Source of the DNA: Patescibacteria group bacterium
GTDB taxonomy: Bacteria > Patescibacteriota > JABMPQ01 > JAQVVF01
Reading direction: 5' to 3'
Length of the DNA stretch: 64,000 nucleotides
NCBI GenBank assembly: GCA_041662665.1
Contig: JBAZSC010000001.1
Span: 513,511-577,510, forward strand
Both the position numbers and the translations under genes were made by a program. The notes under the pieces are model-generated. The model was not told where the DNA came from and did not search any database. It saw only the letters and a program-made list of their open reading frames with translations. Shown here piece after piece: positions 6,282-29,863 of the stretch (positions are counted from its first letter, which is position 1; the number at the start of each line of letters is the position of its first letter).

Positions 6282-6282
6282 T

Positions 6283-6400
6283 TATCAATTTTACAATTTA
6301 CAATAAATTACCAATTTACAATTTTCAAATTATGGTTTTCTGCTTGAAAATTGGTTATTGAAAATTTATTGTAAATTGATAATTGGAAATTGAAAATTTT
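6283..6400. repeat. Long imperfect AT-rich intergenic palindrome built from TTGTAAATTG/CAATTTACAA motifs
   Basis: Arms at 6286-6335 and 6350-6400 are mutual reverse complements with mismatches. The same motif family forms the palindrome at 14105-14225. Confidence 0.5.
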
Positions 6401-7624: not shown

Positions 7625-7645
7625 ATTTTACTAATTCTTACAGTA

Positions 7646-7667
7646 GGCGAGAAAACGTTTTCTCGCC
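7646..7667. terminator. Perfect 22-bp palindrome GGCGAGAAAACG/CGTTTTCTCGCC between convergent genes (bidirectional terminator candidate)
   Basis: GC-rich perfect hairpin between the 3' ends of 6401..7624 (+) and 7730..8227 (-). Confidence 0.5.
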
Positions 7668-7729
7668 TTCGTGTTAATTTAGGCAAAGAAAAAATCAGCT
7701 CAAGGCTGATTATTTTTAGTGTACAATTA

Positions 7730-8227
7730 TTAGCGTAATCTCAACTGTATCAAGTTTCTGCAAGGTTCATCCGCAATTGAAAAAAGTGCGACAGGACCGT
7801 TACTATTATAGAAAATCATTCCTTCTTTGCTCAGAGATGTTATTTCTACGAGCTTATAATCTTGCTTGAAGGATTCAAGACTAGCAGTAGAATCTAAGCC
7901 CTTAGCTAGACATTCCCAAGCAGTAACTTCACAAAAAGCTAAAATTCCATAGATATAATGTCGAGGCATTTCAAACACTTCTCCAGGTTTTGGCATGTCA
8001 GTTCCAGTACTTTTTCTAAACCAATAGATATGAAGTTCTTTCTGGCCAAGGCAGATAAATTCGCACTGCATTGACTCAAAGATTCTACCTGCGTAGATTC
8101 CCTTTGATGCAACTTTAAAAGACAAAGGATACAGATTATAGACATATGCATCAAGTAAGTGTTTTTCTTCGCCATGTTCAGAAATTCGAATAATGACACC
8201 CTGACCAACTTGCCATTCATTTTTCAT
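7730..8227 (-). CDS. Hypothetical protein (165 aa)
   Basis: ORF with SD GGAGGG 5 nt before the second ATG (MKNEWQ...). Own promoter. GC somewhat above neighbours. No recognisable family. Confidence 0.5.
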   Translation of the reverse strand: MKNEWQVGQGVIIRISEHGEEKHLLDAYVYNLYPLSFKVASKGIYAGRIFESMQCEFICLGQKELHIYWFRKSTGTDMPKPGEVFEMPRHYIYGILAFCEVTAWECLAKGLDSTASLESFKQDYKLVEITSLSKEGMIFYNSNGPVALFSIADEPCRNLIQLRLR

Positions 8228-8242
8228 TTGTCCCTCCATTGT

Positions 8243-8275
8243 CCGCCGTAGCCATTTGAATTGTGGCGAAGGCGG
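8243..8275. repeat. GC-rich REP-like hairpin element, copy B (CCGCCGTAGCC-loop-GGCGAAGGCGG)
   Basis: Lies in the 5'-UTR of the minus-strand gene 7730..8227. Same family as 2453-2479. Confidence 0.5.
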
Positions 8276-8301
8276 GCTTTTTCTAGGGTGCGACTGTCAT
8301 A

Positions 8302-8330
8302 ATATTATGCTAAAAATAATCAATTTGCAA
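8302..8330 (-). promoter_or_regulatory. sigma70-like promoter for 7730..8227 (minus strand): TTGCAA, 17-nt spacer, TAATAT
   Basis: Boxes read on the reverse strand. Confidence 0.45.
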
Positions 8331-8423
8331 GAGTCTAGATGTAATGAATAAATAACTTGTTCACGAGCGTACAACTTTCGTACGTTTTTTTATACCCAAA
8401 ACCACATTATCCACAAGAAAAGC

Positions 8424-8452
8424 TTGACTATTAAGCCAAAAACTGCTACACT
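8424..8452 (+). promoter_or_regulatory. Promoter module 1: TTGACT, 17-nt spacer, TACACT
   Basis: First of two tandemly duplicated modules of about 89 bp. Confidence 0.45.
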
Positions 8453-8512
8453 GCTTAGTCAAATTGAAAATGTCTTAAATAAGCCAAAAAAACAAAGATT
8501 TACAAAAAAGCC

Positions 8513-8541
8513 TTGACAGCAAAGGCTAAAAGTGCTATATT
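8513..8541 (+). promoter_or_regulatory. Promoter module 2: TTGACA, 17-nt spacer, TATATT
   Basis: Homologous to module 1, including the downstream ...TAAATAAGCCAAAAAAAC / ...TAAAATAACCAAAAAAC tails. Confidence 0.45.
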
Positions 8542-8619
8542 TATACGTCGATAAATAGACATCTAAAATAACCAAAAAACTGAATTATATGCATTTCATG
8601 AGGGAGATTTATCCGTTAA

Positions 8620-8647
8620 TTCGCATATTCGTAGATTAGCATAAATT
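8620..8647 (+). promoter_or_regulatory. Conserved promoter/operator element, copy 1: TTCGCA, 16-nt spacer, TAAATT; spacer contains GTAGATTAGC
   Basis: Shared with 11157-11225 and 20104-20201; immediately upstream of the ATG at 8669. Confidence 0.5.
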
Positions 8648-8668
8648 CGTATATTTGTATTATATATT

Positions 8669-9820
8669 ATGAAAATAGCTTTTATAGGACAAAAAGGAAT
8701 ACCAGCTAAATCTGGCGGTGTCGAAAGACACGTTGAGGATTTAGCCACTAGATTGGCAAAACAAGGCCATGAAGTTTTTGTATACACAAGACCAAATTAT
8801 ACTGATCCAAATATTAAGTTTTACAAAAACGTCAAATTGGTATCTTTGCCTTCAATAAACTCAAAAAACTTTGATGCTATTTCTCATACCTTAATTTCAA
8901 CATTTCACGCTATATTTCAAAAATACGATATTATTCATTATCAAGGTGTTGGACCATCAACTTTAGCATTTATTGCTAGATTATTTACAAAATCAAAAAT
9001 TATCTCAACTTTTCACTGCCAAGATCAATACCATCAAAAATGGGGTTGGTTTGCAAAATTATATTTAAAATTTGGTGAATTCGCTGCATGTAAATTTCCT
9101 CACCAAACTATTGTTGTCTCAAAAATTATTAGACAAATTGCTAAAGAAAGATTTAATACCGAAGCTATCTATATTCCAAATGGTATTAACTTTTTAGATC
9201 TTAAAAATCAAAATAGCAATATTTTACAAAAATTCAATTTGGAACAAAATAAATATATTTTGACTGTTGGCCGTTTAGTAAAGCACAAAGGCATTCATTA
9301 TTTAATTGATGCTTTCAATAAAATCCAAACTGACAAAAAATTAGTAATTGTCGGTGATTCAGCATGTTCTGATGATTATGTTGAATTTATTAAAGAAAAA
9401 GCAAAAAGCAACCCAAACATTATTTTAACTGGTGCTGTTTTTGGTAAAGATTTACATACATTATATAAAAATGCTTATTTATATGTTCAGCCATCAGAAG
9501 CTGAAGGTTTGCCAACTACAGTATTGGAAGCAATGAGTCATGGAAGATGTGTTCTTGTTTCAAACATTCCAGAAAATATTGAAGCTTTCGCTGGATTTGG
9601 ATATTTATTCATGAACAAAAATGTTGATGACTTAGCTTCAAAATTAGAAATCTTAAATCAAAGAACTGATTTGATTATGGAAAAAGGTGAAAAAGCAAAA
9701 ACTTACGCTTTAGAAAATTACAATTGGGACATTTTAAGTCTTCAAACAGAAATTTTGTATGAAAAAACTCTTCAAAATAGAGAAGAGTTATCTTTCAGTT
9801 TGCGTAAAATCGAAATCTAG
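8669..9820 (+). CDS. Glycosyltransferase family 4
   Basis: MKIAFIGQKGIPAKSGGVERHVEDLATRLAKQGHEV... (GT4 N-domain); C-terminal Glycos_transf_1 region (SEAEGLPTTVLEAMSHG). Confidence 0.8.
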   Translation: MKIAFIGQKGIPAKSGGVERHVEDLATRLAKQGHEVFVYTRPNYTDPNIKFYKNVKLVSLPSINSKNFDAISHTLISTFHAIFQKYDIIHYQGVGPSTLAFIARLFTKSKIISTFHCQDQYHQKWGWFAKLYLKFGEFAACKFPHQTIVVSKIIRQIAKERFNTEAIYIPNGINFLDLKNQNSNILQKFNLEQNKYILTVGRLVKHKGIHYLIDAFNKIQTDKKLVIVGDSACSDDYVEFIKEKAKSNPNIILTGAVFGKDLHTLYKNAYLYVQPSEAEGLPTTVLEAMSHGRCVLVSNIPENIEAFAGFGYLFMNKNVDDLASKLEILNQRTDLIMEKGEKAKTYALENYNWDILSLQTEILYEKTLQNREELSFSLRKIEI

Positions 9821-9918
9821 ATTATTTCCTGAAAAATAATTTTAAGCTAATTTTCAGCAATTAGTATTAAAGTTATGTTTCAGGAGATAAACTCCAAAAT
9901 CGAGTTAATCTCCTTAAA

Positions 9919-9952
9919 GCAGGTGTGGCGCTACTATGTCACCCTGCTTTTA
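9919..9952 (+). terminator. Intrinsic terminator (imperfect)
   Basis: GCAGGTG...CACCCTGC hairpin followed by a TTTTATATT run. Confidence 0.4.
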
Positions 9953-10067
9953 TATTACACTAAATTTTAAAAATAAGAATAATGAAAAATAATCTAGCCC
10001 TGTTGATAAATATGTTTTATACTTTAATAAAGCGAAAATTGCTTCATTGCTAAATTATTAAATTGCT

Positions 10068-10096
10068 GTAGCGACAGGGCAGTGCCCTGTCGCTAC
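10068..10096. promoter_or_regulatory. 29-bp perfect palindrome GTAGCGACAGGGCA-G-TGCCCTGTCGCTAC, 18 nt upstream of the rmlC-like start
   Basis: Identical element (central base complemented) at 17818-17846. Confidence 0.6.
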
Positions 10097-10113
10097 GAAA
10101 TAAATAAAATTTT

Positions 10114-10593
10114 ATGATTCAAGGTGTCAAAATCAAACAGTTAATAATTCGTAAAGACAAACCAGATCTAGATCAGAAAAAAGTTAAACCAGGACATTTG
10201 CTAGAAATTTTAAGATCTGATGACAAATTATTAACAAAATTCGGACAAACAATTTTTACTGTTGCTTATCCTGGTACAATCAAAGCTTTTCATTGGCACA
10301 AAAAACAAGACGATCTTTGGTTTTTCGCGACTGGCAAGGCAACTATTGTATTGTATGATACTCGCAAAAAATCAAAAACTTTTGGCGAGACTCAAGTAAT
10401 TGAATGCAACACTGAAACAGATCCAAAATTAGTATTAATTCCAATCGGTGTTGCTCATGGCTACAAAGCTCAAGGTAAAAAACCAGTTATGCTTTTTTAT
10501 CATACAACAAAACCATATAATGCTAAAAATCCAGATGAGCAAAGACTTCCATACAATGATCCAAAAATCGGATTCAATTGGAATAAAATATAA
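10114..10593 (+). CDS. rmlC: dTDP-4-dehydrorhamnose 3,5-epimerase-like cupin
   Basis: Cupin with KAFHWHK (compare RGLHFQ) and C-terminal NDPKIGFNW (compare NDPxLxIxW). Located with rmlB, rmlD and rmlA. Confidence 0.6.
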   Translation: MIQGVKIKQLIIRKDKPDLDQKKVKPGHLLEILRSDDKLLTKFGQTIFTVAYPGTIKAFHWHKKQDDLWFFATGKATIVLYDTRKKSKTFGETQVIECNTETDPKLVLIPIGVAHGYKAQGKKPVMLFYHTTKPYNAKNPDEQRLPYNDPKIGFNWNKI

Positions 10594-10599
10594 GTAGCT

Positions 10600-10623
10600 G
10601 GTTGCAGAGTCCTCTCTGCAACC
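10600..10623. repeat. Perfect hairpin GGTTGCAGAG-TCCT-CTCTGCAACC sharing the 10-mer GAGTCCTCTC with a hairpin inside CDS 6401..7624
   Basis: 10-bp stem, no T-run; just downstream of the rmlC-like stop. Confidence 0.45.
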
Positions 10624-10690
10624 ACATCAACGTATTAAAATAATTTCAGAAAAGATTCTGAAATCAGCAAATTAGTTTTAAATTTTAAAG

Positions 10691-11155
10691 ATGATATCGA
10701 TAGATCAAAATCTAATTTCACAAACCTTAGAACAGGCAAAGGATAATCCTCGTCATCGACAAATTTTTCGTTTTCACAAATTAAAAGAACCAGTTCAGAG
10801 AATGCTCAATGCTTTATTGCCAGACAGCTATGCTAGACCGCATTACCATTCTGACAAGCCAGAAGTATTTATAATTTTAAAAGGCAAATTAGCAATTATA
10901 AAATTTAATAAGCAAGGAAAAATAATTCAGCAAGAAATAATTAAAAGTTCAGGTCCAAATTTTGGCGTTGAAATAAAACCTAAAGAATGGCATAGTATTG
11001 TTGCTTTAATTCCATCTGTTGTATACGAAATTAAAAAAGGACCATATATTAAAAAGACTGACAAAGTTTTTGCCAAATGGGCGCCTGAAGAAAACACTGA
11101 TGAAGGACAAAAATATTTAAAAAAACTTAAAAATATAATACGAATATACAAATAA
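10691..11155 (+). CDS. WbuC-family cupin fold metalloprotein
   Basis: About 150 aa cupin with the YARPHYH motif; typical of WbuC proteins in O-antigen clusters. Confidence 0.55.
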   Translation: MISIDQNLISQTLEQAKDNPRHRQIFRFHKLKEPVQRMLNALLPDSYARPHYHSDKPEVFIILKGKLAIIKFNKQGKIIQQEIIKSSGPNFGVEIKPKEWHSIVALIPSVVYEIKKGPYIKKTDKVFAKWAPEENTDEGQKYLKKLKNIIRIYK

Positions 11156-11156
11156 T

Positions 11157-11225
11157 GCTAATCTACAAAAATACGAATTCGCATATTCGTTGATTAGCAT
11201 AAATTTATAGATTCGTATCACACTA
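11157..11225 (+). promoter_or_regulatory. Conserved promoter/operator element, copy 2 (GCTAATCTAC...ACGAAT/ATTCGT...GATTAGC nested inverted repeats; TTCGCA, 16-nt spacer, TAAATT; ...ATTCGTATCACACTA-ATG)
   Basis: Aligns with copies at 8620-8668 and 20104-20201. Confidence 0.55.
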
Positions 11226-11636
11226 ATGAAGAAATGCATTTTCTGTCAAATTGCAAAAAAAGAATTGCCGTCAGATATAATTTTTGAAAATAAAAATGTG
11301 ATGGCAATTTTAGATATTATGCCAGTAAATCTAGGCCATGTTTTAGTTATTCCAAAAAAACATTTTGCTACAATGGTCGATGTTCCAGATAAATTATTAC
11401 AGGAAATGATTGTGGTTTCCAAAAAAGTTGGCAAAGCAATTATGAAAGGTCTGAAAGTAAAAGGTTTTAATTTAAGTACAAGCAATGGTAGAGTTGCTGG
11501 ACAAAAAATTGATCACGTCCATTTTCATCTTATTCCAAGATTTGCAAATGATGGTTTAAAATTATGGCCACAAAGACAAGGATATAGAGCAACTGAAGCT
11601 GAAAAAATTGTTAAAAAAATTAAGAGCAAACTTTAG
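11226..11636 (+). CDS. HIT-family (histidine triad) nucleotide hydrolase/transferase
   Basis: HVHFHLIPR histidine-triad motif. Confidence 0.8.
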   Translation: MKKCIFCQIAKKELPSDIIFENKNVMAILDIMPVNLGHVLVIPKKHFATMVDVPDKLLQEMIVVSKKVGKAIMKGLKVKGFNLSTSNGRVAGQKIDHVHFHLIPRFANDGLKLWPQRQGYRATEAEKIVKKIKSKL

Positions 11637-11719
11637 AAAACAGGAAATAGAAAACAGAAAACAGGTGTGGTCGTTAACTTTTTTCTCTTTTCTATTTTCT
11701 ATTAACTATTTCTAATCAT

Positions 11720-12736
11720 ATGAAAATTTTAGTCACAGGAGGTCTAGGTTTTATAGGCGCAAACTTTATTCGCTACATGTTATCAAAATATCCAGACTAT
11801 CAAATTGTCAATTTAGACAAAGTTACTTATGCTGGAAATTTTGAAAATTTAAAAGGCATTGATAAAGATCCTCGCTACCAATTTTTAAAAGGCGACATTG
11901 CTGATTCTAAATTAGTTAATAGTTTAATTTCAGTTCAAAAGCCGGATGCTATCATTAATTTTGCAGCTGAAACACATGTTGATCGATCAATCATGAATCC
12001 AGGCGATTTTATCAATACTGATGTTTTTGGCACACATATTTTACTTAATGCAGTTAAAGATCATAATATAAAACGCTATATCCAAATTTCAACTGATGAA
12101 GTTTATGGTGATTTTGATAATGGCGGATTTGCAAAAGAAAATTCACCACTTAGACCTTCATCTCCATATTCTGCATCAAAAGCAGGAGGAGATCTTCAAG
12201 TTTTAGCATTCAGACGAACTTACAATTTACCAGTTATGATTACAAGATGCACAAATAATTATGGACCATATCAATATCCAGAAAAAATTATTCCACTTTT
12301 TATTACAAATTTATTAGAAGGTAAAAAAGTTCCAGTCTATGGTGATGGCCAACAAATTCGTGATTGGTTGCATGTTGATGATCATTGTTCTGCAATTGAT
12401 TTGGTTTTACATAAAGGCAGAGATGGCGAGATTTATAATATCGGCGCTAACCAAAATCCAGAAATTCCAAATTTAGATTTAACAAAAAGAATTGTTTTGG
12501 TATGCAACAAAGATGAAAAATCAATTGAATATGTCAAAGATCGTGCTGGCCATGATCGTCGTTATGCTGTTGATGTTACAAAAATCAAAACAGAATTAGG
12601 CTGGCAACCAAAATATGATTTTGATTCTGGAATTGCACAAACTATTTCTTGGTACCAAAATAATTTAGACTGGTGGAAAAAAATCAAGACAGGAGAGTAT
12701 TTAAATTATTACAAACAGCAATATGTTCAAAGATAA
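11720..12736 (+). CDS. rmlB: dTDP-glucose 4,6-dehydratase
   Basis: GGLGFIGANF Rossmann motif, TDEVYG and YSASKAGGD motifs; 338 aa. Confidence 0.85.
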   Translation: MKILVTGGLGFIGANFIRYMLSKYPDYQIVNLDKVTYAGNFENLKGIDKDPRYQFLKGDIADSKLVNSLISVQKPDAIINFAAETHVDRSIMNPGDFINTDVFGTHILLNAVKDHNIKRYIQISTDEVYGDFDNGGFAKENSPLRPSSPYSASKAGGDLQVLAFRRTYNLPVMITRCTNNYGPYQYPEKIIPLFITNLLEGKKVPVYGDGQQIRDWLHVDDHCSAIDLVLHKGRDGEIYNIGANQNPEIPNLDLTKRIVLVCNKDEKSIEYVKDRAGHDRRYAVDVTKIKTELGWQPKYDFDSGIAQTISWYQNNLDWWKKIKTGEYLNYYKQQYVQR

Positions 12737-13271
12737 TCTGGCAAACAAGATAATTAAAAAAATTTCATCAAAAGAAATATTTTCTTGCAAATGGTATAAA
12801 TTAAAACATGATAAATTAATTCTTCCTAATGGTAAAAAAGGCGATTATTTTTATATTCATAAAAAAGGTTGTGTAATGATTATTGCAATTGAGAATAATA
12901 ATATTATATTAACTGAACAATATCGATATCTATCAAAGAAAAATAGTATAGAGCTACCAGCTGGCGGTTTTGATAATGGAAATCCTAAATTCCATGCTCA
13001 AAGGGAATTTGAGGAAGAAACAGGTTACAGAGCAAAATATTGGAAAAAAATAGGAATTTTTTATCCGTATAATGGAATTTCAAATGAGATTTGTCATGTT
13101 TTCTTAGCAAAGAATTTAATAAAAACTAAAGTAAATCCAGACGAAACTGAATTTATTAAGATAATAAAAAAACCAGTTAAAGAAGTTTACAAAATGGCAG
13201 AACAAAATAAAATTACTGATGGCATGACAATTTCTGCATTATTTTTAGCTAAAAAGTATTTAAAAATATAA
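12723..13271 (+). CDS. Nudix hydrolase (ADP-ribose/NDP-sugar pyrophosphatase-like)
   Basis: Nudix box ...GGFDNGNPKFHAQREFEEETGY. Confidence 0.75.
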   Translation: MFKDNLANKIIKKISSKEIFSCKWYKLKHDKLILPNGKKGDYFYIHKKGCVMIIAIENNNIILTEQYRYLSKKNSIELPAGGFDNGNPKFHAQREFEEETGYRAKYWKKIGIFYPYNGISNEICHVFLAKNLIKTKVNPDETEFIKIIKKPVKEVYKMAEQNKITDGMTISALFLAKKYLKI

Positions 13272-13273
13272 AT

Positions 13274-14104
13274 ATGAAAATATTAATAACCGGCGCTCGT
13301 GGCATGTTAGGCCAAGATTTATGTTCTCTTTTAGAAAAAGAACATGAAATAATAAAATATGATCGCGAAGAATTAGATATTACAAATGCAGAAATGGTTG
13401 ACGAAGTTCTGCCAAAATTAAATCCAAATGCAGTTATAAATTGTGCTGCTTTTACTGATGTTGATGGTTGTGAAGAACAAACAAAAAAAGAAATTGCCAT
13501 GAAAGTTAATGGCTATGGACCAGGAAATCTAGCCAAAGCTTGTGCAAAATTAGACATCCCATTTTTTCATTACAGCACAGATTATATTTTTAATGGCCAA
13601 GAAAAAAATGGCTATAAAGAAGATTATGACAAAATAGATCCAATCAATGCTTATGGCGAAACAAAAGCATTGGGTGAAAAATTAATTAAAGAAAATTGTA
13701 CAAAATATTATATTTTAAGAACAGCCTGGCTTTATGGAAAATTAGGCAAAAATTTTGTTGACACAATGTTGCAATTAGCTCAAAAAAATGATAATTTAAG
13801 GGTAGTCAACGATCAGCACGGCAAGCCAACTTTTACTTTAGATTTAGCCAAAAGAACAAAAGAAATTCTGGATCAAAAAGTGAAGCCAGGAATATATCAT
13901 GTAACCAATGAAGGAGAAGCGAGTTGGTACGATTTTGCTAACGAAATTTTCAAAATTAAAGGCGTAAAAATAAAAGTTACGCCATGCAAAACTTCTGAAT
14001 TTCCAAGGAAAGCTATAAGACCAGAATATTCCGCATTAATAAATACTAAATTACCGGCAATGAGAAAATGGCAAGAGGCGTTAGCCGAGTATTTAGCAAA
14101 CTAA
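13274..14104 (+). CDS. rmlD: dTDP-4-dehydrorhamnose reductase
   Basis: MKILITGARGMLG...; YSTDYIFNG motif; 276 aa. Confidence 0.8.
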   Translation: MKILITGARGMLGQDLCSLLEKEHEIIKYDREELDITNAEMVDEVLPKLNPNAVINCAAFTDVDGCEEQTKKEIAMKVNGYGPGNLAKACAKLDIPFFHYSTDYIFNGQEKNGYKEDYDKIDPINAYGETKALGEKLIKENCTKYYILRTAWLYGKLGKNFVDTMLQLAQKNDNLRVVNDQHGKPTFTLDLAKRTKEILDQKVKPGIYHVTNEGEASWYDFANEIFKIKGVKIKVTPCKTSEFPRKAIRPEYSALINTKLPAMRKWQEALAEYLAN

Positions 14105-14225
14105 TTTTCAATTATCAATAATCAATTTACAATAAATTTTCAATTCACAATTCTCAATGAGCTGTTTGTAAATTAGTTCATTGGAAATTGATTGAAAATT
14201 GGAAATTGTAAATTGAAAATTAAAT
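14105..14225. repeat. Long imperfect AT-rich intergenic palindrome of the TTGTAAATTG/CAATTTACAA family
   Basis: Arms at about 14108-14160 and 14170-14222; shares motifs with 6283-6400. Confidence 0.45.
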
Positions 14226-14226
14226 C

Positions 14227-15105
14227 ATGAAAGGCATTATTTTAGCTGGAGGGTCGGGAACACGTCTATATCCGTTAACTCAAAGCATCTCAAAACAGAT
14301 CATGCCAATTTATGACAAGCCGATGATTTATTATCCATTGTCGATTTTGATGCTTTCAGGAATTAGAGAAATTTTAATTATTTCAACTCCAAGAGATATA
14401 ACAACTTATCAAGATTTACTTGGCAACGGCAAAAAATTCGGCCTAAAAATTTCTTATGCAGTTCAACCTTCTCCAGATGGATTAGCACAAGCATTTATAA
14501 TTGGTGAAAAATTTATCGGCAAAGATAGCGTCAGTTTAATTTTAGGCGATAATGTTTTTTACGGTCATGGATTTAAAGGCATGTTAAAAAAAGCATCCAG
14601 AATAAAAAAAGGCGCTGTAATTTTTGGCTATTATGTTAATGATCCAGAAAGATATGGCATCGCTGAATTTGATAAAAAATTTCGAGTTTTAAGTATTGAA
14701 GAAAAGCCAGAGCATCCAAAATCAAATTACGCAATTACTGGTTTATATTTTTATGATAATTCAGTTGTCAAAAAAGCAAAATCTTTAAAACCATCAGCAA
14801 GAGGCGAGTTAGAAATTACAGATTTAAACAGATTATATTTAAATGAAAAGAAATTAAAATTAGAAATGCTCGGCCGAGGATTTGCTTGGCTAGACACTGG
14901 CACTCATGAAAGTCTTTTAGATGCCTCAAATTTTATTCAAACAATTGAAAAAAGACAAGGCTTGAAAGTTTCTTGTCTTGAAGAGATTGCTTATACAAAT
15001 GGTTATATTAACAAAAAGCAATTATTAAAATTAGCAGAACCGCTGAGCAAGAATCAGTACGGTCAATATTTGCTAAAGATTGCTAATGAAAAAAACTTAT
15101 TCTAA
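14227..15105 (+). CDS. rmlA: Glucose-1-phosphate thymidylyltransferase
   Basis: [18 protein letters not shown]...; 292 aa; canonical RmlA N-terminus. Confidence 0.9.
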
Positions 15106-23978: not shown

Positions 23979-25004
23979 ATGAGAATCCTGAACTTTCTAG
24001 TATTTTGTGGAGTTGCTTGTTTTTCATCGACTGCTTATACTCAAGAAGAATCCGAAAGCAAGTCGGATATTGCTATTGTTTTGATGTCTGAAGAAACTCA
24101 TGATCAGAGAATGGTAGATGATGCTGTTGAAATGATTATTGCCAAATTTTCAAATGAAAAGATCCAGTCTTCTGGCAAAGAAATGTTTGGCAGTGATTCT
24201 GATGAACAGATCAAAACTTGTCTGAAAGACAATTCTTGTGTACAAAAAAAAGCTGTGGAAAAACATGTTTCCCGAGTATTTTATGGAACTTTGGCTAGTG
24301 ACAGAAGAGTTGAAAATGTTGTAGTTATCACTCCTGGCAAGAGATACAATAAGATCAAGGATGTTGTTCCAGTAGAGAAGAAAACTCTGACTATTAGACT
24401 GACTATGTTTGATGCAGTCAACAACAAGGTTGAAATGTCATGGGTGAGCAAAAAGATTGAACCAAGCAAACTCGCTTCTGAAGTTCTGACTGACATTGCT
24501 TCCGAAGCTGTTCGTATCTACAAGGCAAGTCCACTGACCTGGCCAGAAACAAAAAAGCCAAATACTGAAGTCAAGGTTGAAATTGTAAATGTCGATCCTG
24601 TTTCAGAACCAGCCAAGCCAGTTGTCGAAGAAGTGCAGGAAAAGCCAATCGTTCTGCTGGATCCTGAAGTGAGCAATTTGGATTGGCATTTCTGGACGAG
24701 CGTTGGCGGTGCAAGTGTCGGTGTAATCTTGATTTCTGCAGGCAGTTACTACGGTCTCAAGTCAAGCAATGCTAGCGACAATTATGATGCAACCAACATT
24801 CAGACCCAGGCAGAAAGCTTTAAAGATGAAGCAGAATCTGCTGGATCAACTGCTAACATTATGTTTGCTTCTGGTGGAGTTCTGATTGCAGGCAGTGCAG
24901 CTCTTTATGTTCTTGATCAATTCGGTATTCTCGATGCCAATGAATCACCTCAGGCAGTTTTCGTGCCAAAAGACGGCATGTTCTGTTTGAACCTTTCGTT
25001 CTAA
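23979..25004 (+). CDS. Secreted/membrane-anchored hypothetical protein
   Basis: Strong SD (GAGGAGGAG), signal peptide MRILNFLVFCGVACFSS, C-terminal hydrophobic segments. The ATG at 23979 is preferred over the ORF-track start at 23913. Confidence 0.55.
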   Translation: MRILNFLVFCGVACFSSTAYTQEESESKSDIAIVLMSEETHDQRMVDDAVEMIIAKFSNEKIQSSGKEMFGSDSDEQIKTCLKDNSCVQKKAVEKHVSRVFYGTLASDRRVENVVVITPGKRYNKIKDVVPVEKKTLTIRLTMFDAVNNKVEMSWVSKKIEPSKLASEVLTDIASEAVRIYKASPLTWPETKKPNTEVKVEIVNVDPVSEPAKPVVEEVQEKPIVLLDPEVSNLDWHFWTSVGGASVGVILISAGSYYGLKSSNASDNYDATNIQTQAESFKDEAESAGSTANIMFASGGVLIAGSAALYVLDQFGILDANESPQAVFVPKDGMFCLNLSF

Positions 25005-25030: not shown

Positions 25031-25242
25031 CCTGAAATCCTATATTTTACGTTCAGCTTAAATATTATATTTGAAAATAATAATGCTTCTAGGCTCAAAA
25101 ATTGACAAAATTATACAAAATATCCATAATAAGCCATTTTCTCTTGCCAAAATTTTATGATTATGCTATTATAATATGAACAGAAAACCAGGAAAGGTCG
25201 GTTACAGGACCGAACCTTCACATCAAGAGAGGAGGAAGAGAG

Positions 25243-28200
25243 ATGAGACAAACAGCATTAATGTTTTTGTTGTCCTTGTATTTTGTTGGTTGTATTGCAG
25301 AGTTGGCACCTGCTGATGAAAAGAATGGAAAGAATCTTTGTGATGAAAATGCACGTTGCTCTGATGGCTATACTTGTGTTTGCAACATGAATAATCATTC
25401 CAAGATTTGCGTGAAGAATCCGAATGCTGAAATGATTTTGGCAAACAAGTCTACTGTCTGTGAAGAGACTATGTCTGACACCGGACCCGATGCTGAAGCT
25501 GACGCCGAAGTTGGAACAAGCGCTGATATCGACGCTGATTCTAACGCTGAAGCGGACGCTGAAGTCGGAACGCCTGATGAAGATTCGACGACTGATACAG
25601 ATGCCAACGCTTCTACCGATGTCGAGCCTGATGAAGGCAACGATGTTGGTAATGACGCTCAGCCTGATGTCTCGCCTGACAATGGAACCGATCTCGGTTC
25701 TGATGTCGGTGAAGATGTTCCTTGTATTCCCGCAACCGAAATCTGTGATGGCGTTGACAATGACTGCGATAGCTATACTGACGAAGATTTCAACAATCTG
25801 AATCAGTCCTGTTCTGTCGGACTCGGTTTGTGTGAGAACGAAGGCGTTTACGTTTGTAGTACCGATAGAAGCACAACTGTTTGTAATGTTGCAGCTTTTC
25901 AAGCTTATCCTGAAGAATGTGATGACATGGACAACGACTGCGATGGCCAAACTGACGAAGATTTGGTTGGCTGTTGCGACGTTGACGCTGTTCAGGAATG
26001 CGGATCTGATGTTGGGGAATGTGTGAAGGGCGAGATGACTTGTCAGGAAGATGGCAGTTGGGGCGACTGTGAAAACGCTGTTGGTCCGACTGTTGATCTT
26101 TGCGACAGTCTTGACAATGACTGTGATGGCGCAACTGACGAGGATTTTCTGAATCGAGGGATGGAATGCCAGATTGGTCAAGGCAACTGTCTTTCTAATG
26201 GCAATTATGCTTGTACTGAAGATATGTTTGGAACTTTCTGTGCAGCTCTGATCATCCAGCCGTCCAATGAGGCTTGCGATCAGCAGGATAATGACTGCGA
26301 TGGCGCAACTGATGAGGACTTGGTTGGATGTTGCGAGCCTAACGATCAGGTCGAATGCGGATCCGCTGTCGGCGAATGCCGTAAGGGTCACAAGACTTGT
26401 TCGATTGATGGTGTGTGGAGCGAATGTCTTGAAGAAGTGAAGCCAATGGCTGAACTTTGTGATGGCAAGGATAACAACTGCGACGGTCAGACAGATGAAA
26501 CCTTTGCTAATCTGAACAGCGAATGTCAGATTGGGCGTGGTGAATGTCTGTCGATTGGTCGCATGACTTGCGGTGTTGATCAGCAGTCAACGTCTTGTAA
26601 TGCAGATATCCTCACCGGCAACGATGAGATCTGTGATAACAAAGATAATGACTGCGATGGCGATGTTGACGAAAATCTGCTGCGTGAATGTGGCAGTGAC
26701 GTCGGTGAATGTGAGATCGGTATCCAATCTTGTTTTGCTGGTGGCTGGCTTGCCTGCGAAGGTGAGATTCAGTCGAGCGACGAGATTTGTGATAACCTTG
26801 ATAACAATTGCGACGGTAATACAGATGAAGGTTTCAACATCAACGATCAATGCTTTGAAGGTCTTGGCGAATGCCAGGCTGAAGGCGTGATCGTTTGTGT
26901 TGATGAGAATATGAGTGCTTGCAATGCAGTTGTCGGTCAGCAGTCGGAAGAGACATGCGATGGCTTGGACAACGATTGCGATGGCAATACAGATGAAGAG
27001 TTGGAAAATTGTTGTATTCCTGATACCATTTCCGAATGCGGTATTGACACTGGCGAATGTGTGAAGGGAACTTCCACTTGCCAGGCAGACCGTACTTGGG
27101 GTTGGTGTTTGGATGCAACTGGACCATCGGATGAAATCTGCGATGGATTGGATAACAACTGCGATGGCGAAACAGACGAAGGTTTGACTGGTTGTTGCTC
27201 ACCTTCCGTTTCTCGCAACTGCGGATCTGATGTGGGCGAATGCTCTCATGGGACGCAGATTTGCTGGGAAAGCCGTGAGTGGGGCGAATGCCAGAATCAG
27301 ACTTTGCCTGCAAATGAAATCTGCGATGGACTTGACAATGACTGCGATGGCCAGACAGACAATGGATTCGACCTCATGGCTGAAGCCAATAACTGCGGCC
27401 AATGCAATTATGTTTGTGGCAGTCAGGGGACAGTGAGTACTACTTGCGAAGCAGGTGAGTGCGTTCTGACGTGCAGCCGCTTCCGAGTTGATTTGAACAC
27501 TGATCCGACTGACGGCTGTGAATGTGAAGTCACCAATTGCGGTGTGGAAATCTGCGATCAGGTGGACAACGATTGTGATGGTGCAATTGACGAAGACTGT
27601 GATTCTCTCGTCATGTACCTGAGCTTCGATGGACACATGAATGATGGATCTACCAATGCCAACAACGCTCTCAACCATGGCGCCACTTACACTGCTGATG
27701 CAGTTTGTGGCCAGGCAGCATCGTTCGACGGAGTCGACGATTATGCCGAAGTGGCTGATAGCGTGAGCATGGATTCGATTGTGAATGAGTTTACGATTTG
27801 CGTTTCAGCAAATGTGACTGATTACGAAAGAGGTGATGTTGTATTCTCAAAGTTTAGGCTGCAACCAGCACTTGGAATCGAATGGAACGATGTAACTATG
27901 GAAAACAACTGGACATTCTTTTTAAACCGAGTAAAGCTTGCTCAGGGAAGAACTGTTAATGTGAATCAGTGGATTACTTTCTGTGGGAAATTCAAGCAAG
28001 GAGTTTTTACTGCATACATTGATGGCGAACAAATTTGGCAAGGTAATGCTCAAAACCCAGTTGGCGGTATTACCTATATTGGGTCTAACGATATGCCACC
28101 AGCCAAGAACAGCCACACAAAGATTGATGAGACTACATTTTATAACGTTGCACTTTCCGATGAGGAAATCCAGCACTACTTTGAAATCATGAAACGCTAG
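25243..28200 (+). CDS. Large secreted (lipo)protein with 11 MopE-like/TSP3-like Cys-rich Ca-binding repeats (CDGxDNDCDGxTDE) and a C-terminal LamG/concanavalin-A-like domain
   Basis: Strong SD, signal peptide with ...YFVGC. N-terminal acidic DAEADAEVGT repeats. Eleven copies of C-D-x-x-D-N-D-C-D-G-x-x-D-E alternate with two types of Cys-knot-like spacers. C-terminal LSFDG...DGSTNANNALNHGAT...ASFDGVDDYAEV is the LamG_3 signature. GC about 45-50%. Confidence 0.7.
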   Translation: MRQTALMFLLSLYFVGCIAELAPADEKNGKNLCDENARCSDGYTCVCNMNNHSKICVKNPNAEMILANKSTVCEETMSDTGPDAEADAEVGTSADIDADSNAEADAEVGTPDEDSTTDTDANASTDVEPDEGNDVGNDAQPDVSPDNGTDLGSDVGEDVPCIPATEICDGVDNDCDSYTDEDFNNLNQSCSVGLGLCENEGVYVCSTDRSTTVCNVAAFQAYPEECDDMDNDCDGQTDEDLVGCCDVDAVQECGSDVGECVKGEMTCQEDGSWGDCENAVGPTVDLCDSLDNDCDGATDEDFLNRGMECQIGQGNCLSNGNYACTEDMFGTFCAALIIQPSNEACDQQDNDCDGATDEDLVGCCEPNDQVECGSAVGECRKGHKTCSIDGVWSECLEEVKPMAELCDGKDNNCDGQTDETFANLNSECQIGRGECLSIGRMTCGVDQQSTSCNADILTGNDEICDNKDNDCDGDVDENLLRECGSDVGECEIGIQSCFAGGWLACEGEIQSSDEICDNLDNNCDGNTDEGFNINDQCFEGLGECQAEGVIVCVDENMSACNAVVGQQSEETCDGLDNDCDGNTDEELENCCIPDTISECGIDTGECVKGTSTCQADRTWGWCLDATGPSDEICDGLDNNCDGETDEGLTGCCSPSVSRNCGSDVGECSHGTQICWESREWGECQNQTLPANEICDGLDNDCDGQTDNGFDLMAEANNCGQCNYVCGSQGTVSTTCEAGECVLTCSRFRVDLNTDPTDGCECEVTNCGVEICDQVDNDCDGAIDEDCDSLVMYLSFDGHMNDGSTNANNALNHGATYTADAVCGQAASFDGVDDYAEVADSVSMDSIVNEFTICVSANVTDYERGDVVFSKFRLQPALGIEWNDVTMENNWTFFLNRVKLAQGRTVNVNQWITFCGKFKQGVFTAYIDGEQIWQGNAQNPVGGITYIGSNDMPPAKNSHTKIDETTFYNVALSDEEIQHYFEIMKR

Positions 28201-28210
28201 CACTTTTTTT

Positions 28211-28237
28211 ACCACAGATTTTTCTGTGGTTTTTTTG
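28211..28237 (+). terminator. Intrinsic terminator
   Basis: ACCACAGA-TTTT-TCTGTGGT hairpin followed by T6. Confidence 0.7.
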
Positions 28238-28240
28238 TAC

Positions 28241-28294: not shown

Positions 28295-29029
28295 TTAATA
28301 AACAGTTAGATAAAATCCTGTAGGATCTGAACCTGCACCAGTATCATCATAAAAATCAATCGTAACCGATGTTGTACCAACAGACCTAATAACAGCAAAT
28401 AAACTTGTACCAGAAATAAGAGGAGTAACATTAAAATAATTAGAAGAAATATTTGTTGTTGCTCCAAAATCAACTGTATATCTTCCAGCTGTTGAATTAT
28501 AGCTAGGCGTTATTGTTGTTCCATTAGCTAGTTTGTTAAATTGGGTGGCTGCTGTTGGAGTAGAGGGAGTCGAAGTGTTAATATACGCTGCCGCCTTTAC
28601 AACTCCATCCATAGAAAAATCCATTTTATCACCAGTTACAGAAGCACTTTGCAAATTACCAGAAGTTATAGTTTCGCTAGCAATTTTATTTCCAGTTACA
28701 GCGCCTTCGCCAATTTTTCCATTTGTAACAACACCAGTTCCAAGATTATCAGCACCAACAATATTGCTACCTTGCAAAATTCCGCCAACTTTGACATTTC
28801 CTTGAACTTTCAAATGATCCTTGATATAAACTTTTTTGCCTTTGACAGGATTTCTGATAAAACCTTTTACTAACAATTGTCCTTTATTGCTGTTTGTTCC
28901 AACAGTCAATGTTTTTTTTACTAGACCAGTATCAATGGTCCAGACAGATGCTGCGCTTGCAAAAGCAGTTGTAAACAACAACGCGCTTCCTAAAACAAGC
29001 GACAACCCTAAAAATCTTTTTTGTTTCAT
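28295..29029 (-). CDS. Secreted Gly/Thr/Val-rich repeat protein (beta-helix or fiber-like)
   Basis: Signal peptide, repeated G.V.TG.KI..G motifs, 244 aa. Confidence 0.5.
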   Translation of the reverse strand: MKQKRFLGLSLVLGSALLFTTAFASAASVWTIDTGLVKKTLTVGTNSNKGQLLVKGFIRNPVKGKKVYIKDHLKVQGNVKVGGILQGSNIVGADNLGTGVVTNGKIGEGAVTGNKIASETITSGNLQSASVTGDKMDFSMDGVVKAAAYINTSTPSTPTAATQFNKLANGTTITPSYNSTAGRYTVDFGATTNISSNYFNVTPLISGTSLFAVIRSVGTTSVTIDFYDDTGAGSDPTGFYLTVY

Positions 29030-29200: not shown

Positions 29201-29785
29201 TTATGATTTAAGCTCAATAGTTGGAAAAGCTTTTATTTTACTAATCTTTTCATACTCGATATCACTTAGAATTCGATGACCTTTTAAAGTATCAACTAAA
29301 ACAATTATTTTTTCATCTAACTTTCTAATAATCAAAATAACATCACCCTTTGCAGAATCAATTTTATTGATCAAAGATTCTTCAACATGATCAATTTTAT
29401 TTGTTAATTCTTTTTTAATACCATCAACTTTAATATTTAATATTTCTAAATCTTCTTTTGTTGCGGTCTCTTCAAAACCTTTTGCAACCATTAATGCAAG
29501 TTCTGAAATTTTTTTATCGAATTTTTTATCAAGTCTTTTTTCTTGTTGATTAAAACCAATATCCATTTTTTTATCAAGTCTTTTTTCTTGTTGATTAAAA
29601 CCAATATCCATTTTTTTATCAAGTCTTTTTTCTTGTTCTTTAAAACCACTATCCATTTTTACGGATAATTTTTCAAACTTTGTAGATATCTTTTCAACCT
29701 TTGTAGATATCTTTTCAACTTTTGTGCCAAGCTTTTCAATCAATTTGGCCAAATCATTAATTGTAATTTCTTTTTTTATTTTCAT
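29201..29785 (-). CDS. Coiled-coil protein with perfect in-frame tandem DNA repeats (45 bp in 3 copies; 21 bp in 3 copies)
   Basis: Two perfect copies plus one variant of a 45-bp unit at about 29522-29655 encode FNQQEKRLDKKMDIG. A 21-bp unit at about 29668-29740 encodes KVEKIST. The internal Met (MKIKKE) is preferred as start. Confidence 0.5.
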   Translation of the reverse strand: MKIKKEITINDLAKLIEKLGTKVEKISTKVEKISTKFEKLSVKMDSGFKEQEKRLDKKMDIGFNQQEKRLDKKMDIGFNQQEKRLDKKFDKKISELALMVAKGFEETATKEDLEILNIKVDGIKKELTNKIDHVEESLINKIDSAKGDVILIIRKLDEKIIVLVDTLKGHRILSDIEYEKISKIKAFPTIELKS

Positions 29786-29863
29786 GAATTCAAAAATTTT
29801 ATCACCAAAATTATAACACATTTTTTCTAAGTCAACAAATATACTGTTGATAATAAATCAAAG

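What the first reader, a model, noticed from the sequence alone, without database searches (positions are those of the whole stretch)
25243..28200. 985-aa secreted protein with 11 MopE-like/thrombospondin-type-3-like Ca-binding Cys repeats and a LamG domain, a Myxococcota-style architecture in an AT-rich small genome
The protein contains eleven copies of C-D-x-x-D-N-D-C-D-G-x-T-D-E. The D-N-D-C-D-G core matches DxDxDG calcium-binding loops, and the whole motif matches what I recall as the MopE-type putative metal-binding repeat that is abundant in Myxococcales.

The repeats alternate regularly with two kinds of Cys-knot-like spacers: QC.IG.G.C...G...C and CC......ECGSDVGEC.KG..TC...G.WG.C. An N-terminal acidic DAEADAEVGT repeat precedes them. 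At the C-terminus is a clear LamG/concanavalin-A-like signature (LSFDG...ASFDGVDDYAEV).

The gene's GC (about 45-50%) is far above the host background. The architecture suggests either horizontal acquisition from a delta-proteobacterial or myxobacterial-type donor followed by amelioration, or a convergent adhesin.
Basis: partly seen in the sequence, partly recalled or inferred. Interest (0 to 1): 0.6.

Follow-up and report, generated by a model that had tools for sequence, protein, structure and literature searches.

The report
Calcium-repeat stalk lipoprotein with lectin tip
This gene from a tiny-genome (Patescibacteria/CPR) bacterium encodes a membrane-anchored surface protein with eleven probable calcium-binding, disulfide-locked modules and a fast-evolving lectin-like tip, most likely an attachment protein; its domains are already catalogued, but its GC-rich codon usage is stably inherited rather than a mark of recent gene transfer.

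Summary
ORF 25243-28200 (+) encodes 985 aa with 11 exact CDxxDN[DN]CD[GS]xxD[EN] motifs (Pfam PF11617, E 4.8e-41), a C-terminal Laminin_G_3 domain (E 7.5e-10, fold-confirmed), an acidic disordered linker and 87 Cys. It is a lipoprotein (lipobox Cys17), not a freely secreted protein. NCBI already names it "MopE-related protein" but calls the start too late.

The host is a Patescibacteria MAG. The gene sits at the same syntenic position in four diverged relatives.

Best reading: a lipid-anchored stalk, probably stiffened by Ca2+, that presents a rapidly diverging lectin tip. This would be an adhesin, plausibly for host-cell attachment.

The HGT interpretation is only partly supported:
- MopE repeats are commonest in Myxococcota, but the MopE+LamG_3 fusion and its partner gene were found only in Patescibacteria-type contexts.
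- GC3 (0.43 vs ~0.2) is equally raised in all orthologs although synonymous sites are saturated, and it shows no net decay.
- A second island in the window (GC3 ~0.8) is also vertically conserved at ~50% aa identity.

High GC3 is therefore a maintained, unexplained state in this clade. The protein is a new member of a known kind; the codon-composition pattern is the more interesting point.

The parts
25102..25130 (+). Promoter-like site, TTGACA-17-CATAAT (11/12)
   Evidence: This is a consensus match only; the total count in the region is not above shuffles.
25230..25235 (+). Shine-Dalgarno AGGAGG, 7 nt before ATG 25243
   Evidence: Read from the sequence. Supports the long (985-aa) start rather than NCBI's internal TTG.
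25243..28200 (+). CDS of the 985-aa MopE-repeat/LamG lipoprotein
   Evidence: The identical 985-aa JGI gene call is P0122.
25243..25293 (+). Signal peptide plus lipobox (aa 1-17, LYFVG|C)
   Evidence: Read from the sequence. The lipobox Cys is conserved in four orthologs (ISGC, LSGC, LAGC).
25339..25461 (+). N-terminal Cys-rich cap (aa 33-73, 6 Cys)
   Evidence: Conserved in orthologs. Two beta-hairpins in the model at low-to-moderate pLDDT.
25474..25725 (+). Acidic low-complexity linker (aa 78-161) with 2 x AEADAEVGT
   Evidence: pLDDT 25-32, so disordered. Length varies among orthologs. 12-nt tandem repeat.
25726..27624 (+). Array of 11 MopE-type modules (aa 162-794); order A B A B A B' A B B C J
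   Evidence: The A+B pair was modelled at pLDDT 93.6. DNA copies are 60-78% identical.
25744..25785 (+). Motif core 1, CDGVDNDCDSYTDE
25918..25959 (+). Motif core 2, CDDMDNDCDGQTDE
26101..26142 (+). Motif core 3, CDSLDNDCDGATDE
26275..26316 (+). Motif core 4, CDQQDNDCDGATDE
26458..26499 (+). Motif core 5, CDGKDNNCDGQTDE
26632..26673 (+). Motif core 6, CDNKDNDCDGDVDE
26788..26829 (+). Motif core 7, CDNLDNNCDGNTDE
26956..26997 (+). Motif core 8, CDGLDNDCDGNTDE
27139..27180 (+). Motif core 9, CDGLDNNCDGETDE
27322..27363 (+). Motif core 10, CDGLDNDCDGQTDN
27553..27594 (+). Motif core 11, CDQVDNDCDGAIDE
27625..28197 (+). LamG / concanavalin-A-like lectin domain (aa 795-985; Pfam match aa 829-977)
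   Evidence: Pfam. Foldseek hits at E~1e-7 to the trans-sialidase lectin domain, AbnA domain 4, pentraxins, BoNT HcN and PAPP-A LamG. The C-terminal half is the fastest-evolving part.
28211..28240 (+). Intrinsic-terminator-like hairpin plus T-run
23979..25004 (+). Co-inherited upstream gene (~341 aa from MRILNF…): signal peptide, C-terminal hydrophobic segments, no Pfam family; shares the raised GC3 (0.36)
   Evidence: Homologs only in Patescibacteria loci.
28295..29029 (-). Conserved downstream secreted 244-aa protein (normal GC3 0.19)
   Evidence: Syntenic in L001, L002 and L004, and also beside the MopE-LamG gene in L006.

Best explanation
The gene encodes a surface lipoprotein that most likely acts as a calcium-stiffened adhesin stalk.

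Proposed mechanism, step by step:
1. After Sec export, the protein is lipidated at Cys17 and held on the outer face of the cell membrane. This is inferred from the lipobox.
2. An ~85-aa acidic disordered linker carries the rest of the protein through the wall layer. The disorder is seen in the model; the role is inferred.
3. About 630 aa then form eleven small disulfide-locked modules. Each contains an E-x-C-D-x-x-D-N-D-C-D-G-x-T-D-E loop whose acidic and Asn ligands match the Ca2+-coordinating residues of the teneurin-4 C-rich domain and of thrombospondin type-3 repeats. Ca2+ probably rigidifies the array into a rod. The motif match is shown; Ca2+ binding is inferred.
4. At the distal end, a LamG/ConA-like jelly-roll domain binds a glycan or protein ligand. 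Its C-terminal half diverges 3-4 times faster than the stalk. The fold and the divergence are shown; the ligand is unknown.

The host is a small-genome Patescibacteria bacterium, and cultivated members of that group live attached to other microbes. The ligand is therefore plausibly on a host cell.

The gene is vertically inherited within its clade together with an upstream membrane-protein gene. Its GC-rich codon usage is a maintained gene-specific state, not a decaying trace of recent transfer.
For: - Domains: PF11617 x11 and Laminin_G_3.
- Lipobox conserved in four orthologs.
- SD and promoter support ATG 25243.
- Models: linker disordered, modules pLDDT 65-85 in the full model, A+B pair pLDDT 93.6.
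- The LamG model matches lectin/receptor-binding jelly rolls at E~1e-7.
- Ca2+ ligand motif: the teneurin-4 C-rich domain binds 3 Ca2+ through E…CxDxxDNDxDxxxD, described as TSP3-like and LDL-A-like (PMC9058538). The PF11617 consensus was previously aligned with that domain (PMC3278476).
- In MopE* itself the Cu(I) site is two His plus kynurenine, and CaCl2 stabilises the protein (PMC3423442).
- Purifying selection: whole-gene dN/dS ~0.18-0.23; motif cores ~0.05.
- LamG C-half: aa identity 0.35-0.45 and dN 0.5-0.75, against 0.2 for the array.
- Module number and linker length vary among orthologs.
- Conserved synteny in four independent assemblies.
- The neighbourhood consists of cell-envelope genes: polysaccharide synthesis, lipoproteins, an S8 peptidase. 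Relatives also carry a MopE + C-type-lectin paralog.
- Patescibacteria lifestyle: abstracts of PMC10633639 and PMC12206443.
Against: - No experiment or structural superposition shows Ca2+ binding here.
- Profiles of the repeat and of the array found no PDB sequence at E<=10.
- Foldseek found no significant PDB analogue of the module (best E 2.5). The teneurin/TSP3 link therefore rests on motif identity alone.
- Pfam TSP_3, Ldl_recept_a and EGF models did not match at E<=0.1.
- The window's own lipobox has Phe at -3, which is less canonical than in the orthologs.
- The LamG ligand, the host organism and surface exposure are all unknown.
- The taxon label is only 'Patescibacteria group' / 'Candidatus Saccharibacteria' from record titles.
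- No disulfide-forming enzyme was seen in the ORFs scanned.
Confidence: 0.55

Rival explanations
1. Ancient horizontal acquisition: the MopE array, perhaps with its upstream partner, entered an ancestor of this Patescibacteria clade from a high-GC, MopE-rich lineage such as Myxococcota. The raised GC is what remains of the donor composition.
For: - GC3 is raised for nearly every amino acid in the gene and its upstream partner.
- The family is commonest in Myxococcota, Bradymonadia and 'Deltaproteobacteria'.
- Another Patescibacteria MAG (L005) carries a MopE cluster at GC3 ~0.8 against 0.47 housekeeping.
Against: - Orthologs are syntenic in four diverged genomes with the same GC3.
- W-L004 synonymous S/W states retain only ~4-9% correlation. 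A pure relic would therefore need an ancestral GC3 of >=0.9 exactly at that node.
- ML finds stationarity, and decay to the background equilibrium is disfavoured (2dlnL 4.85, p~0.03).
- The LamG tip and partner gene have no homolog in ~35 Myxococcota-type loci.
- The best non-CPR hits are only 35-40% identical over the repeats.
- The window's GC3~0.8 island shows that high GC3 can be a stable, vertically inherited state in this clade.
Confidence: 0.3
2. Recent horizontal transfer, or an assembly or binning chimera specific to this genome.
For: Sharp local GC rise, 47% vs 28%.
Against: - The same gene sits at the same position in four independent assemblies from NCBI, JGI and ENA.
- dS is ~1.2-1.4 between the closest pairs.
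- dN/dS is ~0.2, so the gene is under long-term purifying selection in this lineage.
Confidence: 0.03
3. Copper (or other metal) scavenging protein like MopE of Methylococcus capsulatus.
For: The Pfam family name 'Cu-binding_MopE' and the NCBI name 'MopE-related protein'.
Against: - In MopE* the high-affinity Cu(I) site is formed by His132, His203 and a kynurenine, not by the Asp/Asn/Cys motif (PMC3423442).
- The protein here has only 7 His in 985 aa, and all motif ligands are hard oxygen donors typical of Ca2+.
- No PDB chain at all, and hence none of MopE*, matched the array profile.
Confidence: 0.04
4. Structural envelope or matrix protein: a Ca2+-crosslinked component of an S-layer-like or capsule-associated layer rather than a ligand-specific adhesin. 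In this reading the LamG domain binds the cell's own surface polysaccharide.
For: - The gene is embedded between large surface-polysaccharide biosynthesis clusters.
- A weak sequence match of the LamG region to an S-layer-domain protein, 4qvs (E 0.25).
- Acidic linker and Ca2+ motifs.
Against: - The LamG C-half diverges very fast (aa identity 0.35-0.45) while the flanking polysaccharide genes are 80-90% identical. This fits a changing external ligand better than a conserved self-glycan.
- It is a single-copy lipoprotein with no S-layer homology or self-assembly domain detected.
Confidence: 0.2

Closest known systems
PF11617 (Cu-binding_MopE / 'MopE-related') repeat proteins, abundant in Myxococcota and Bradymonadia (many with MYXO-CTERM)
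   Same: The same 14-residue C-D-x-x-D-N-D-C-D-G-x-x-D-E motif in tandem, interleaved with the same small Cys-rich spacers. Thousands of homologs at 30-40% identity.
   Different: Those proteins are typically 1200-1700 aa, contain only MopE repeats or MopE repeats with other C-terminal domains, and come from high-GC diderm bacteria. This one is a 985-aa lipoprotein with an acidic linker and a single C-terminal LamG_3 domain, in a ~28% GC Patescibacteria genome. The MopE+LamG_3 combination was seen only in Patescibacteria-type or unlabelled metagenomic sequences.
Teneurin C-rich domain (human teneurin-4 residues 834-871; crystal structure in Meijer et al. 2022, PMC9058538)
   Same: Core L-D-N-D-x-D-G-x-T-D is nearly identical. 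The acidic/Asn ligands that coordinate Ca2+ I and II are all present. It is disulfide-rich and extracellular. PF11617 was aligned to it by Tucker et al. 2012 (PMC3278476).
   Different: There is one residue fewer between the first Cys and DND. The Cys pattern differs (Cys replaces Gly inside the loop). Teneurins have a single copy against 11 tandem copies here. No significant sequence-profile or Foldseek link was obtained here, so this is a resemblance in mechanism, not shown homology.
Thrombospondin type-3 repeats / LDL-receptor class A modules
   Same: DxDxDGxxDxxD-type acidic loops that wrap Ca2+ and are pinned by disulfides. Meijer et al. describe the teneurin sites as TSP3-like and LA-like.
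   Different: Pfam TSP_3 and Ldl_recept_a did not match at E<=0.1. The spacers and Cys connectivity are different.
MopE of Methylococcus capsulatus
   Same: Gives the Pfam family its name. It is a surface-associated/secreted protein stabilised by Ca2+.
   Different: MopE's copper site (His, His, kynurenine) has no counterpart here. There is no detectable similarity to any solved chain, MopE* included, and no LamG domain in MopE.
LamG_3 / ConA-like lectin domains of bacterial surface and toxin proteins (trans-sialidase lectin domain, AbnA domain 4, BoNT HcN, pentraxins)
   Same: Same jelly-roll fold (Foldseek E~1e-7) at the distal end of an extracellular protein. 3548 sequence relatives.
   Different: Only 11-19% identity to solved examples. 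The nearest sequence relatives (42-54%) form a distinct MopE+LamG_3 subfamily. The ligand is unknown.

Membership tests
Pfam PF11617 Cu-binding_MopE repeat | Score above the Pfam gathering threshold; repeated C-D-G-x-D-N-D-C-D-G-x-x-D-E motif | tested here: met
   139.1 bits against a cutoff of 27; 11 stretches. 11 regex matches.
Pfam PF13385 Laminin_G_3 (ConA-like lectin/glucanase superfamily) | Score above the gathering threshold and a jelly-roll fold | tested here: met
   39.6 bits against 27.6, covering profile positions 1-151 of 151. The model matches LamG/pentraxin/lectin domains at E~1e-7.
Bacterial lipoprotein | N-terminal signal peptide ending in a lipobox [LVI][ASTVI][GAS]C | tested here: met
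   Window: LYFVG-C (Phe at -3, slightly atypical). Orthologs: ISGC, LSGC, LAGC at the aligned position. Lgt/LspA presence and actual lipidation were not testable.
Ca2+-binding module of teneurin C-rich / TSP type-3 kind | Conserved acidic/Asn ligand set D-x-x-D-N-D-x-D-x-x-x-D preceded by Glu | tested here: met
   All ligand positions are invariant or >=90% conserved across the 11 repeats, compared with the ligands listed in PMC9058538.
Ca2+-binding module of teneurin C-rich / TSP type-3 kind | Detectable homology or structural superposition with a solved Ca2+-bound module | tested here: not met
Ca2+-binding module of teneurin C-rich / TSP type-3 kind | Measured Ca2+ binding | not testable with these tools
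   Needs ITC/DSF or a crystal structure.
Pfam TSP_3 / Ldl_recept_a / EGF_CA | HMM match | tested here: not met
   None reported at E<=0.1 in the Pfam scan.
MopE-type copper protein | His/His/kynurenine Cu(I) site and similarity to MopE* | tested here: not met
   No PDB chain, and so no MopE* chain, was found by phmmer or by profiles. The Cu ligands described in PMC3423442 lie outside the motif. His makes up 0.7% of residues.
Recently transferred genomic island | Atypical composition AND patchy presence among close relatives | tested here: not met
   The composition is atypical, but the gene is present and syntenic in all four relatives examined, with equal GC3. There is no net S->W decay.

The most novel reading that the evidence does not exclude
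This Patescibacteria clade keeps a small set of exported, Cys-containing surface-protein genes at a gene-specific, much higher synonymous GC content than the rest of the genome, over times long enough to randomise synonymous sites. The set comprises the MopE-LamG lipoprotein and its partner (GC3 ~0.36-0.48) and the two-gene island at 531-2331 (GC3 ~0.8); the genome background is GC3 ~0.2. If so, a directional force acts on particular genes in an ultra-small AT-rich genome. Candidates are selection for rare GC-ending codons (for example to slow translation of disulfide-rich exported proteins or to gate their expression), GC-biased gene conversion in recombination-prone surface genes, or continual replacement from an unsampled high-GC pool such as the host. 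Composition-based HGT calls in such genomes would then be systematically misleading.
Probability: 0.45. Interest if true: 0.65.

Novelty: new member of a known kind. Interest (0 to 1): 0.4.

Why it matters
How ultra-small Patescibacteria recognise and hold on to their host cells is largely unknown. Large surface proteins with variable tips are the obvious candidates. This gene defines a conserved MopE+LamG_3 lipoprotein subfamily, with a rigid-stalk/variable-lectin design, that could be tested directly for host binding.

The finding is also a clear case where raised GC and foreign-looking codon usage do not mean recent transfer. The state is inherited and stationary across diverged relatives. 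That bears on how HGT is inferred in reduced genomes, and it raises an open question about what maintains GC-rich codons in a 28% GC genome.

The practical annotation points are minor. The NCBI start codon is mis-called, so the lipoprotein signal is lost from the record. The 'Cu-binding' label is probably misleading.

Tried and rejected
1. Parsimony polarisation of synonymous changes gave S->W 110 against W->S 106 for the target. The same method gave an impossible imbalance for background genes (a majority-rule artefact at high divergence), so I replaced it with an ML two-state model and a retention calculation.

2. A LamG-only search in the word-indexed protein database returned a single hit and was uninformative. 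The exhaustive HMMER search replaced it.

3. PDB sequence searches with the whole protein, a 22-column repeat profile and the 1091-position array profile found only a marginal LamG hit (4qvs) or nothing.

5. NCBIfam gave no family for the protein.

6. I first took the 531-2331 island (GC3 ~0.8, next to tRNA genes) for a fresh transfer that would support the HGT reading. Its orthologs in L050 and L051 showed the opposite.

7. Recent intragenic homogenisation as a cause of high GC was rejected: the DNA repeats are only 60-78% identical.

8. 'Exported proteins in general are GC-rich' was rejected: the S8 peptidase, the 244-aa and the 453-aa exported neighbours have normal GC3.

9. A literature search found no prior description of either the MopE-LamG subfamily in CPR or the GC3 pattern.
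Full report
**Observation.** The ORF at 25243-28200 (+) is real and encodes 985 aa.
- A pattern scan finds exactly eleven copies of C-D-x-x-D-N-[DN]-C-D-[GS]-x-x-D-[EN]. In the aligned copies C, D, D, N, C, D and D are invariant, and the preceding Glu, the Gly and the final Glu are >=90% conserved.
- Pfam assigns PF11617 (Cu-binding_MopE; 11 stretches, 139 bits against a cutoff of 27, E 4.8e-41) and PF13385 (Laminin_G_3; aa 829-977, full profile coverage, E 7.5e-10). NCBIfam has no model for the protein.
- The protein has 87 Cys (8.8%) and 12.7% Asp.
Type A is 58 aa with 6 Cys (modules 1, 3, 5, 7). Type B is 61 aa with 8 Cys including 'CC' (modules 2, 4, 8, 9). The order is A B A B A B' A B B, followed by a distinct 77-aa 10-Cys unit and a 30-aa junction, so strict alternation holds only for the first eight modules.
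- The acidic segment (aa ~78-161, with two AEADAEVGT copies) is predicted disordered.

**Gene boundaries and export signal.**
- A terminator-like hairpin follows the upstream gene. A TTGACA-17-CATAAT site lies at 25102-25130, AGGAGG lies 7 nt before ATG 25243, and a hairpin with a T-run follows the stop codon.
- The N-terminus reads MRQTALMFLLSLYFVG-C. The aligned orthologs have ISGC, LSGC and LAGC. The product is therefore a lipoprotein, not a freely secreted protein.
- The identical NCBI record (MFA6296255.1, 'MAG: MopE-related protein [Patescibacteria group bacterium]', 790 aa) starts at an internal TTG inside module 1. The JGI call is the full 985 aa.

**Host and conservation.**
- The window belongs to a 645-kb contig of a Patescibacteria MAG. 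The nearest species-representative genome with an ortholog is titled 'uncultured Candidatus Saccharibacteria bacterium'.
- Orthologs (P0002 64%, P0003 63%, P0009 50% identity) lie in the same gene order in three further independent assemblies. The order is RmlA-like, a 453-aa protein, epimerase, MetK, UDP-glucose dehydrogenase, a 140-aa and a 543-aa gene on the minus strand, a ~370-aa exported protein, (in two genomes) an extra MopE + C-type-lectin lipoprotein, the MopE-LamG gene, and a ~240-aa secreted protein.
- The genomes are well diverged. MetK is 91% identical within the closest trio and 83% to L004. Four-fold sites are ~55% and ~30% identical respectively. dS for the target is 1.2-1.4 within the trio and not computable (saturated) to L004.
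- The gene is under purifying selection (dN/dS ~0.18-0.23), and the motif cores are strongly constrained (~0.05).
- The C-terminal half of LamG is the most variable region, with aa identity 0.35-0.45 and dN 0.5-0.75 against 0.2 for the array.
- Linker length and module number vary among orthologs.

**Structure.**
- A full-length AlphaFold2 model is extended (pTM 0.28). The linker is disordered, the modules score pLDDT 65-85, and the C-terminal jelly roll scores pLDDT 70-85.
- Against the PDB the full model matches only through its C-terminal domain. The hits are the trans-sialidase lectin domain, AbnA domain 4, pentraxins, the BoNT Hc N-subdomain and PAPP-A (E~1e-7). This confirms the LamG/ConA-like assignment.
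- An A+B module pair (aa 162-280) modelled with 42 homologous rows reaches mean pLDDT 93.6. It has no significant PDB neighbour by Foldseek (best E 2.5).
- Sequence profiles of the repeat and of the whole array find no PDB chain at E<=10. The module therefore has no solved representative that these tools can detect.

**Why calcium rather than copper.**
- Tucker et al. (PMC3278476) aligned the PF11617 consensus with the teneurin Cys-rich core (CxDxxDNDxDGxxDC).
- Meijer et al. (PMC9058538) solved the teneurin-4 C-rich domain at 1.5 Å. They found three Ca2+ ions held by E835, D840, D843, N844, D845, D847, D851, D854 and D856. Two of the sites resemble thrombospondin type-3 repeats and one resembles LDL-A modules.
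- The repeat here, E-x-C-D-x-x-D-N-D-C-D-G-x-T-D-E, preserves the Glu, the D-N-D, the D-G and the distal D/E, with one residue fewer after the first Cys. This is a motif-level match, not demonstrated homology. Pfam TSP_3, Ldl_recept_a and EGF models do not hit.
- In MopE* itself the Cu(I) site is His132/His203 plus a kynurenine, and CaCl2 stabilises the protein (PMC3423442). The 'Cu-binding' label therefore should not be transferred to this protein.

**Mechanism proposed.** The protein is probably a lipid-anchored stalk: an acidic flexible linker, a Ca2+-rigidified rod of eleven disulfide-locked modules, and a distal lectin-like domain whose binding face changes quickly between lineages.
- Context supports a surface role. 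The gene lies between surface-polysaccharide clusters and among lipoproteins and an S8 peptidase.
- A paralog ends in a C-type lectin instead of LamG.
- Cultivated Patescibacteria are episymbionts (abstracts listed).
- Taken together, an adhesin for host or substrate recognition is the most likely role (confidence ~0.55).
- A self-glycan-binding envelope component is the main functional rival.

**The HGT question.** The compositional anomaly is real and is not an amino-acid effect.
- GC3 is 0.43 against 0.16-0.25 in neighbouring genes. GC-ending codons are preferred for almost every amino acid (Lys 0.84 vs 0.17, Gln 0.70 vs 0.18, Leu 0.67 vs 0.26). The upstream gene shows the same pattern.
- MopE repeats are concentrated in Myxococcota-type genomes.

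Four results argue against the simple reading of 'transfer, then amelioration':
1. All four syntenic orthologs have GC3 0.42-0.48 against backgrounds of 0.18-0.29.
2. W-L004 synonymous S/W states retain only 4-9% correlation. A relic would need an ancestral GC3 of >=0.9 right at that node.
3. An ML two-state model on the closest trio gives equilibrium GC3 0.435 and root 0.51. Stationarity is not rejected (2dlnL 0.42). Decay towards the background equilibrium is disfavoured, though only at p~0.03.
4. The LamG tip and the upstream gene have homologs only in Patescibacteria-type loci and in none of ~35 Myxococcota-type loci. The closest LamG sequences in an exhaustive search of 1.8 billion representatives all have the MopE+LamG_3 architecture.

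An ancient transfer of the repeat array remains possible (about 0.3) but is not shown.

**A second example in the same window.**
- Genes 531-1598 and 1693-2331 have GC3 0.82 and 0.79. The second is a lipoprotein with (GE)n repeats and a Cys motif like the type-B spacer. Both sit next to tRNA-Lys and tRNA-Leu. This looked like a fresh island.
- Only six homologs exist in 5.8 billion proteins. The two with enough flanking DNA lie in the same synteny (DUF5679, DUF5656, Wzz, GT4, then the island gene) on AT-rich contigs.
- At 48-52% aa identity, with S/W synonymous states fully randomised (0.36 observed against 0.37 expected if independent), both still have GC3 0.72-0.80. The flanking GT4 gene has GC3 0.20-0.24 and is ~80% identical.
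- High GC3 is thus a stable, vertically inherited property of particular exported-protein genes in this clade.
- It is not a general property of exported proteins: the S8 peptidase and the 244-aa and 453-aa proteins have normal GC3. It is not due to recent repeat homogenisation: DNA repeats are 60-78% identical.
- A distant Patescibacteria MAG shows the same contrast around its MopE cluster, 0.8 against 0.47.
- The force responsible is unknown. I found no description of this pattern in the literature searched.

**Verdict.** The protein is a new member (a Patescibacteria MopE+LamG_3 lipoprotein subfamily) of a known and already annotated repeat family. Its probable function is Ca2+-dependent surface adhesion. 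The HGT/amelioration interpretation is only partly supported. The more interesting result is the maintained, gene-specific GC-rich codon usage.

Noticed in passing
window 531-1598 (+) and 1693-2331 (+): Two adjacent exported-protein genes with GC3 0.82 and 0.79 in a genome with GC3 ~0.2. The first ends in …GLRF. The second is a lipoprotein with (GE)n repeats and a Cys motif like the target's type-B spacer. Orthologs in L050 and L051 keep the same synteny and the same high GC3 at ~50% aa identity. No Pfam family matches either gene.
   Followed up: yes
window ~2342-2450 (+); L050 ~5560-5650: A ~110-nt non-coding stretch downstream of the GC-rich island is ~95% identical between W and L050, although the adjacent genes are only ~50% identical in protein. 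It folds as a 5' hairpin plus a terminator hairpin (MFE -31.1 kcal/mol, z -4.2), occurs once in the window, and matches no Rfam family above threshold.
   Followed up: partly
L001 8541-9824 and L004 8729-9844 (absent from the window and L002): An extra lipoprotein gene with three MopE repeats and a C-terminal C-type lectin domain (PF00059) sits immediately upstream of the MopE-LamG gene in two relatives. It has the same stalk design with a different lectin tip.
   Followed up: partly
window 23979-25004 (+): The upstream ~341-aa exported protein with C-terminal hydrophobic segments is always adjacent to the MopE-LamG gene and shares its raised GC3 (0.35-0.43). It evolves very fast (27-34% aa identity among orthologs), has no Pfam family, and has no homolog outside the Patescibacteria loci examined.
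   Followed up: partly
window 25243 vs 25828 (residue 196, TTG): The NCBI record MFA6296255.1 starts at an internal TTG and is 790 aa. It therefore lacks the lipoprotein signal, the linker and the first MopE motif. The JGI call (985 aa), the Shine-Dalgarno sequence and the ortholog alignment all support ATG 25243.
   Followed up: yes
window 28295-29029 (-) and 29201-29821 (-); L006 6259-7251 and 7341-7946: The downstream 244-aa secreted protein and a coiled-coil protein beginning MK(I/T)KK(E/P)ITI…L also lie beside the MopE-LamG gene in a more distant Patescibacteria MAG. This suggests a conserved surface-protein cluster of unknown function.
   Followed up: partly
L005 5844-11282 and 14878-15642: In another Patescibacteria MAG (GCA_043820285.1), a three-gene MopE cluster and a nearby lipoprotein have GC3 0.79-0.83, while the surrounding housekeeping genes (trigger factor, RNase HII, ProRS) have 0.45-0.49.
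   Followed up: partly
window 3410-4663 (+): A 417-aa ORF just after the tRNA genes also has moderately raised GC3 (0.34) and no Pfam match.
   Followed up: no
window 4833-15105 and 33914-63785: The target lies between large surface-polysaccharide biosynthesis clusters (Wzy, GT4s, RmlA-D, flippase-type transporters), almost all on the + strand. No disulfide-forming enzyme was seen among the ORFs scanned.
   Followed up: partly
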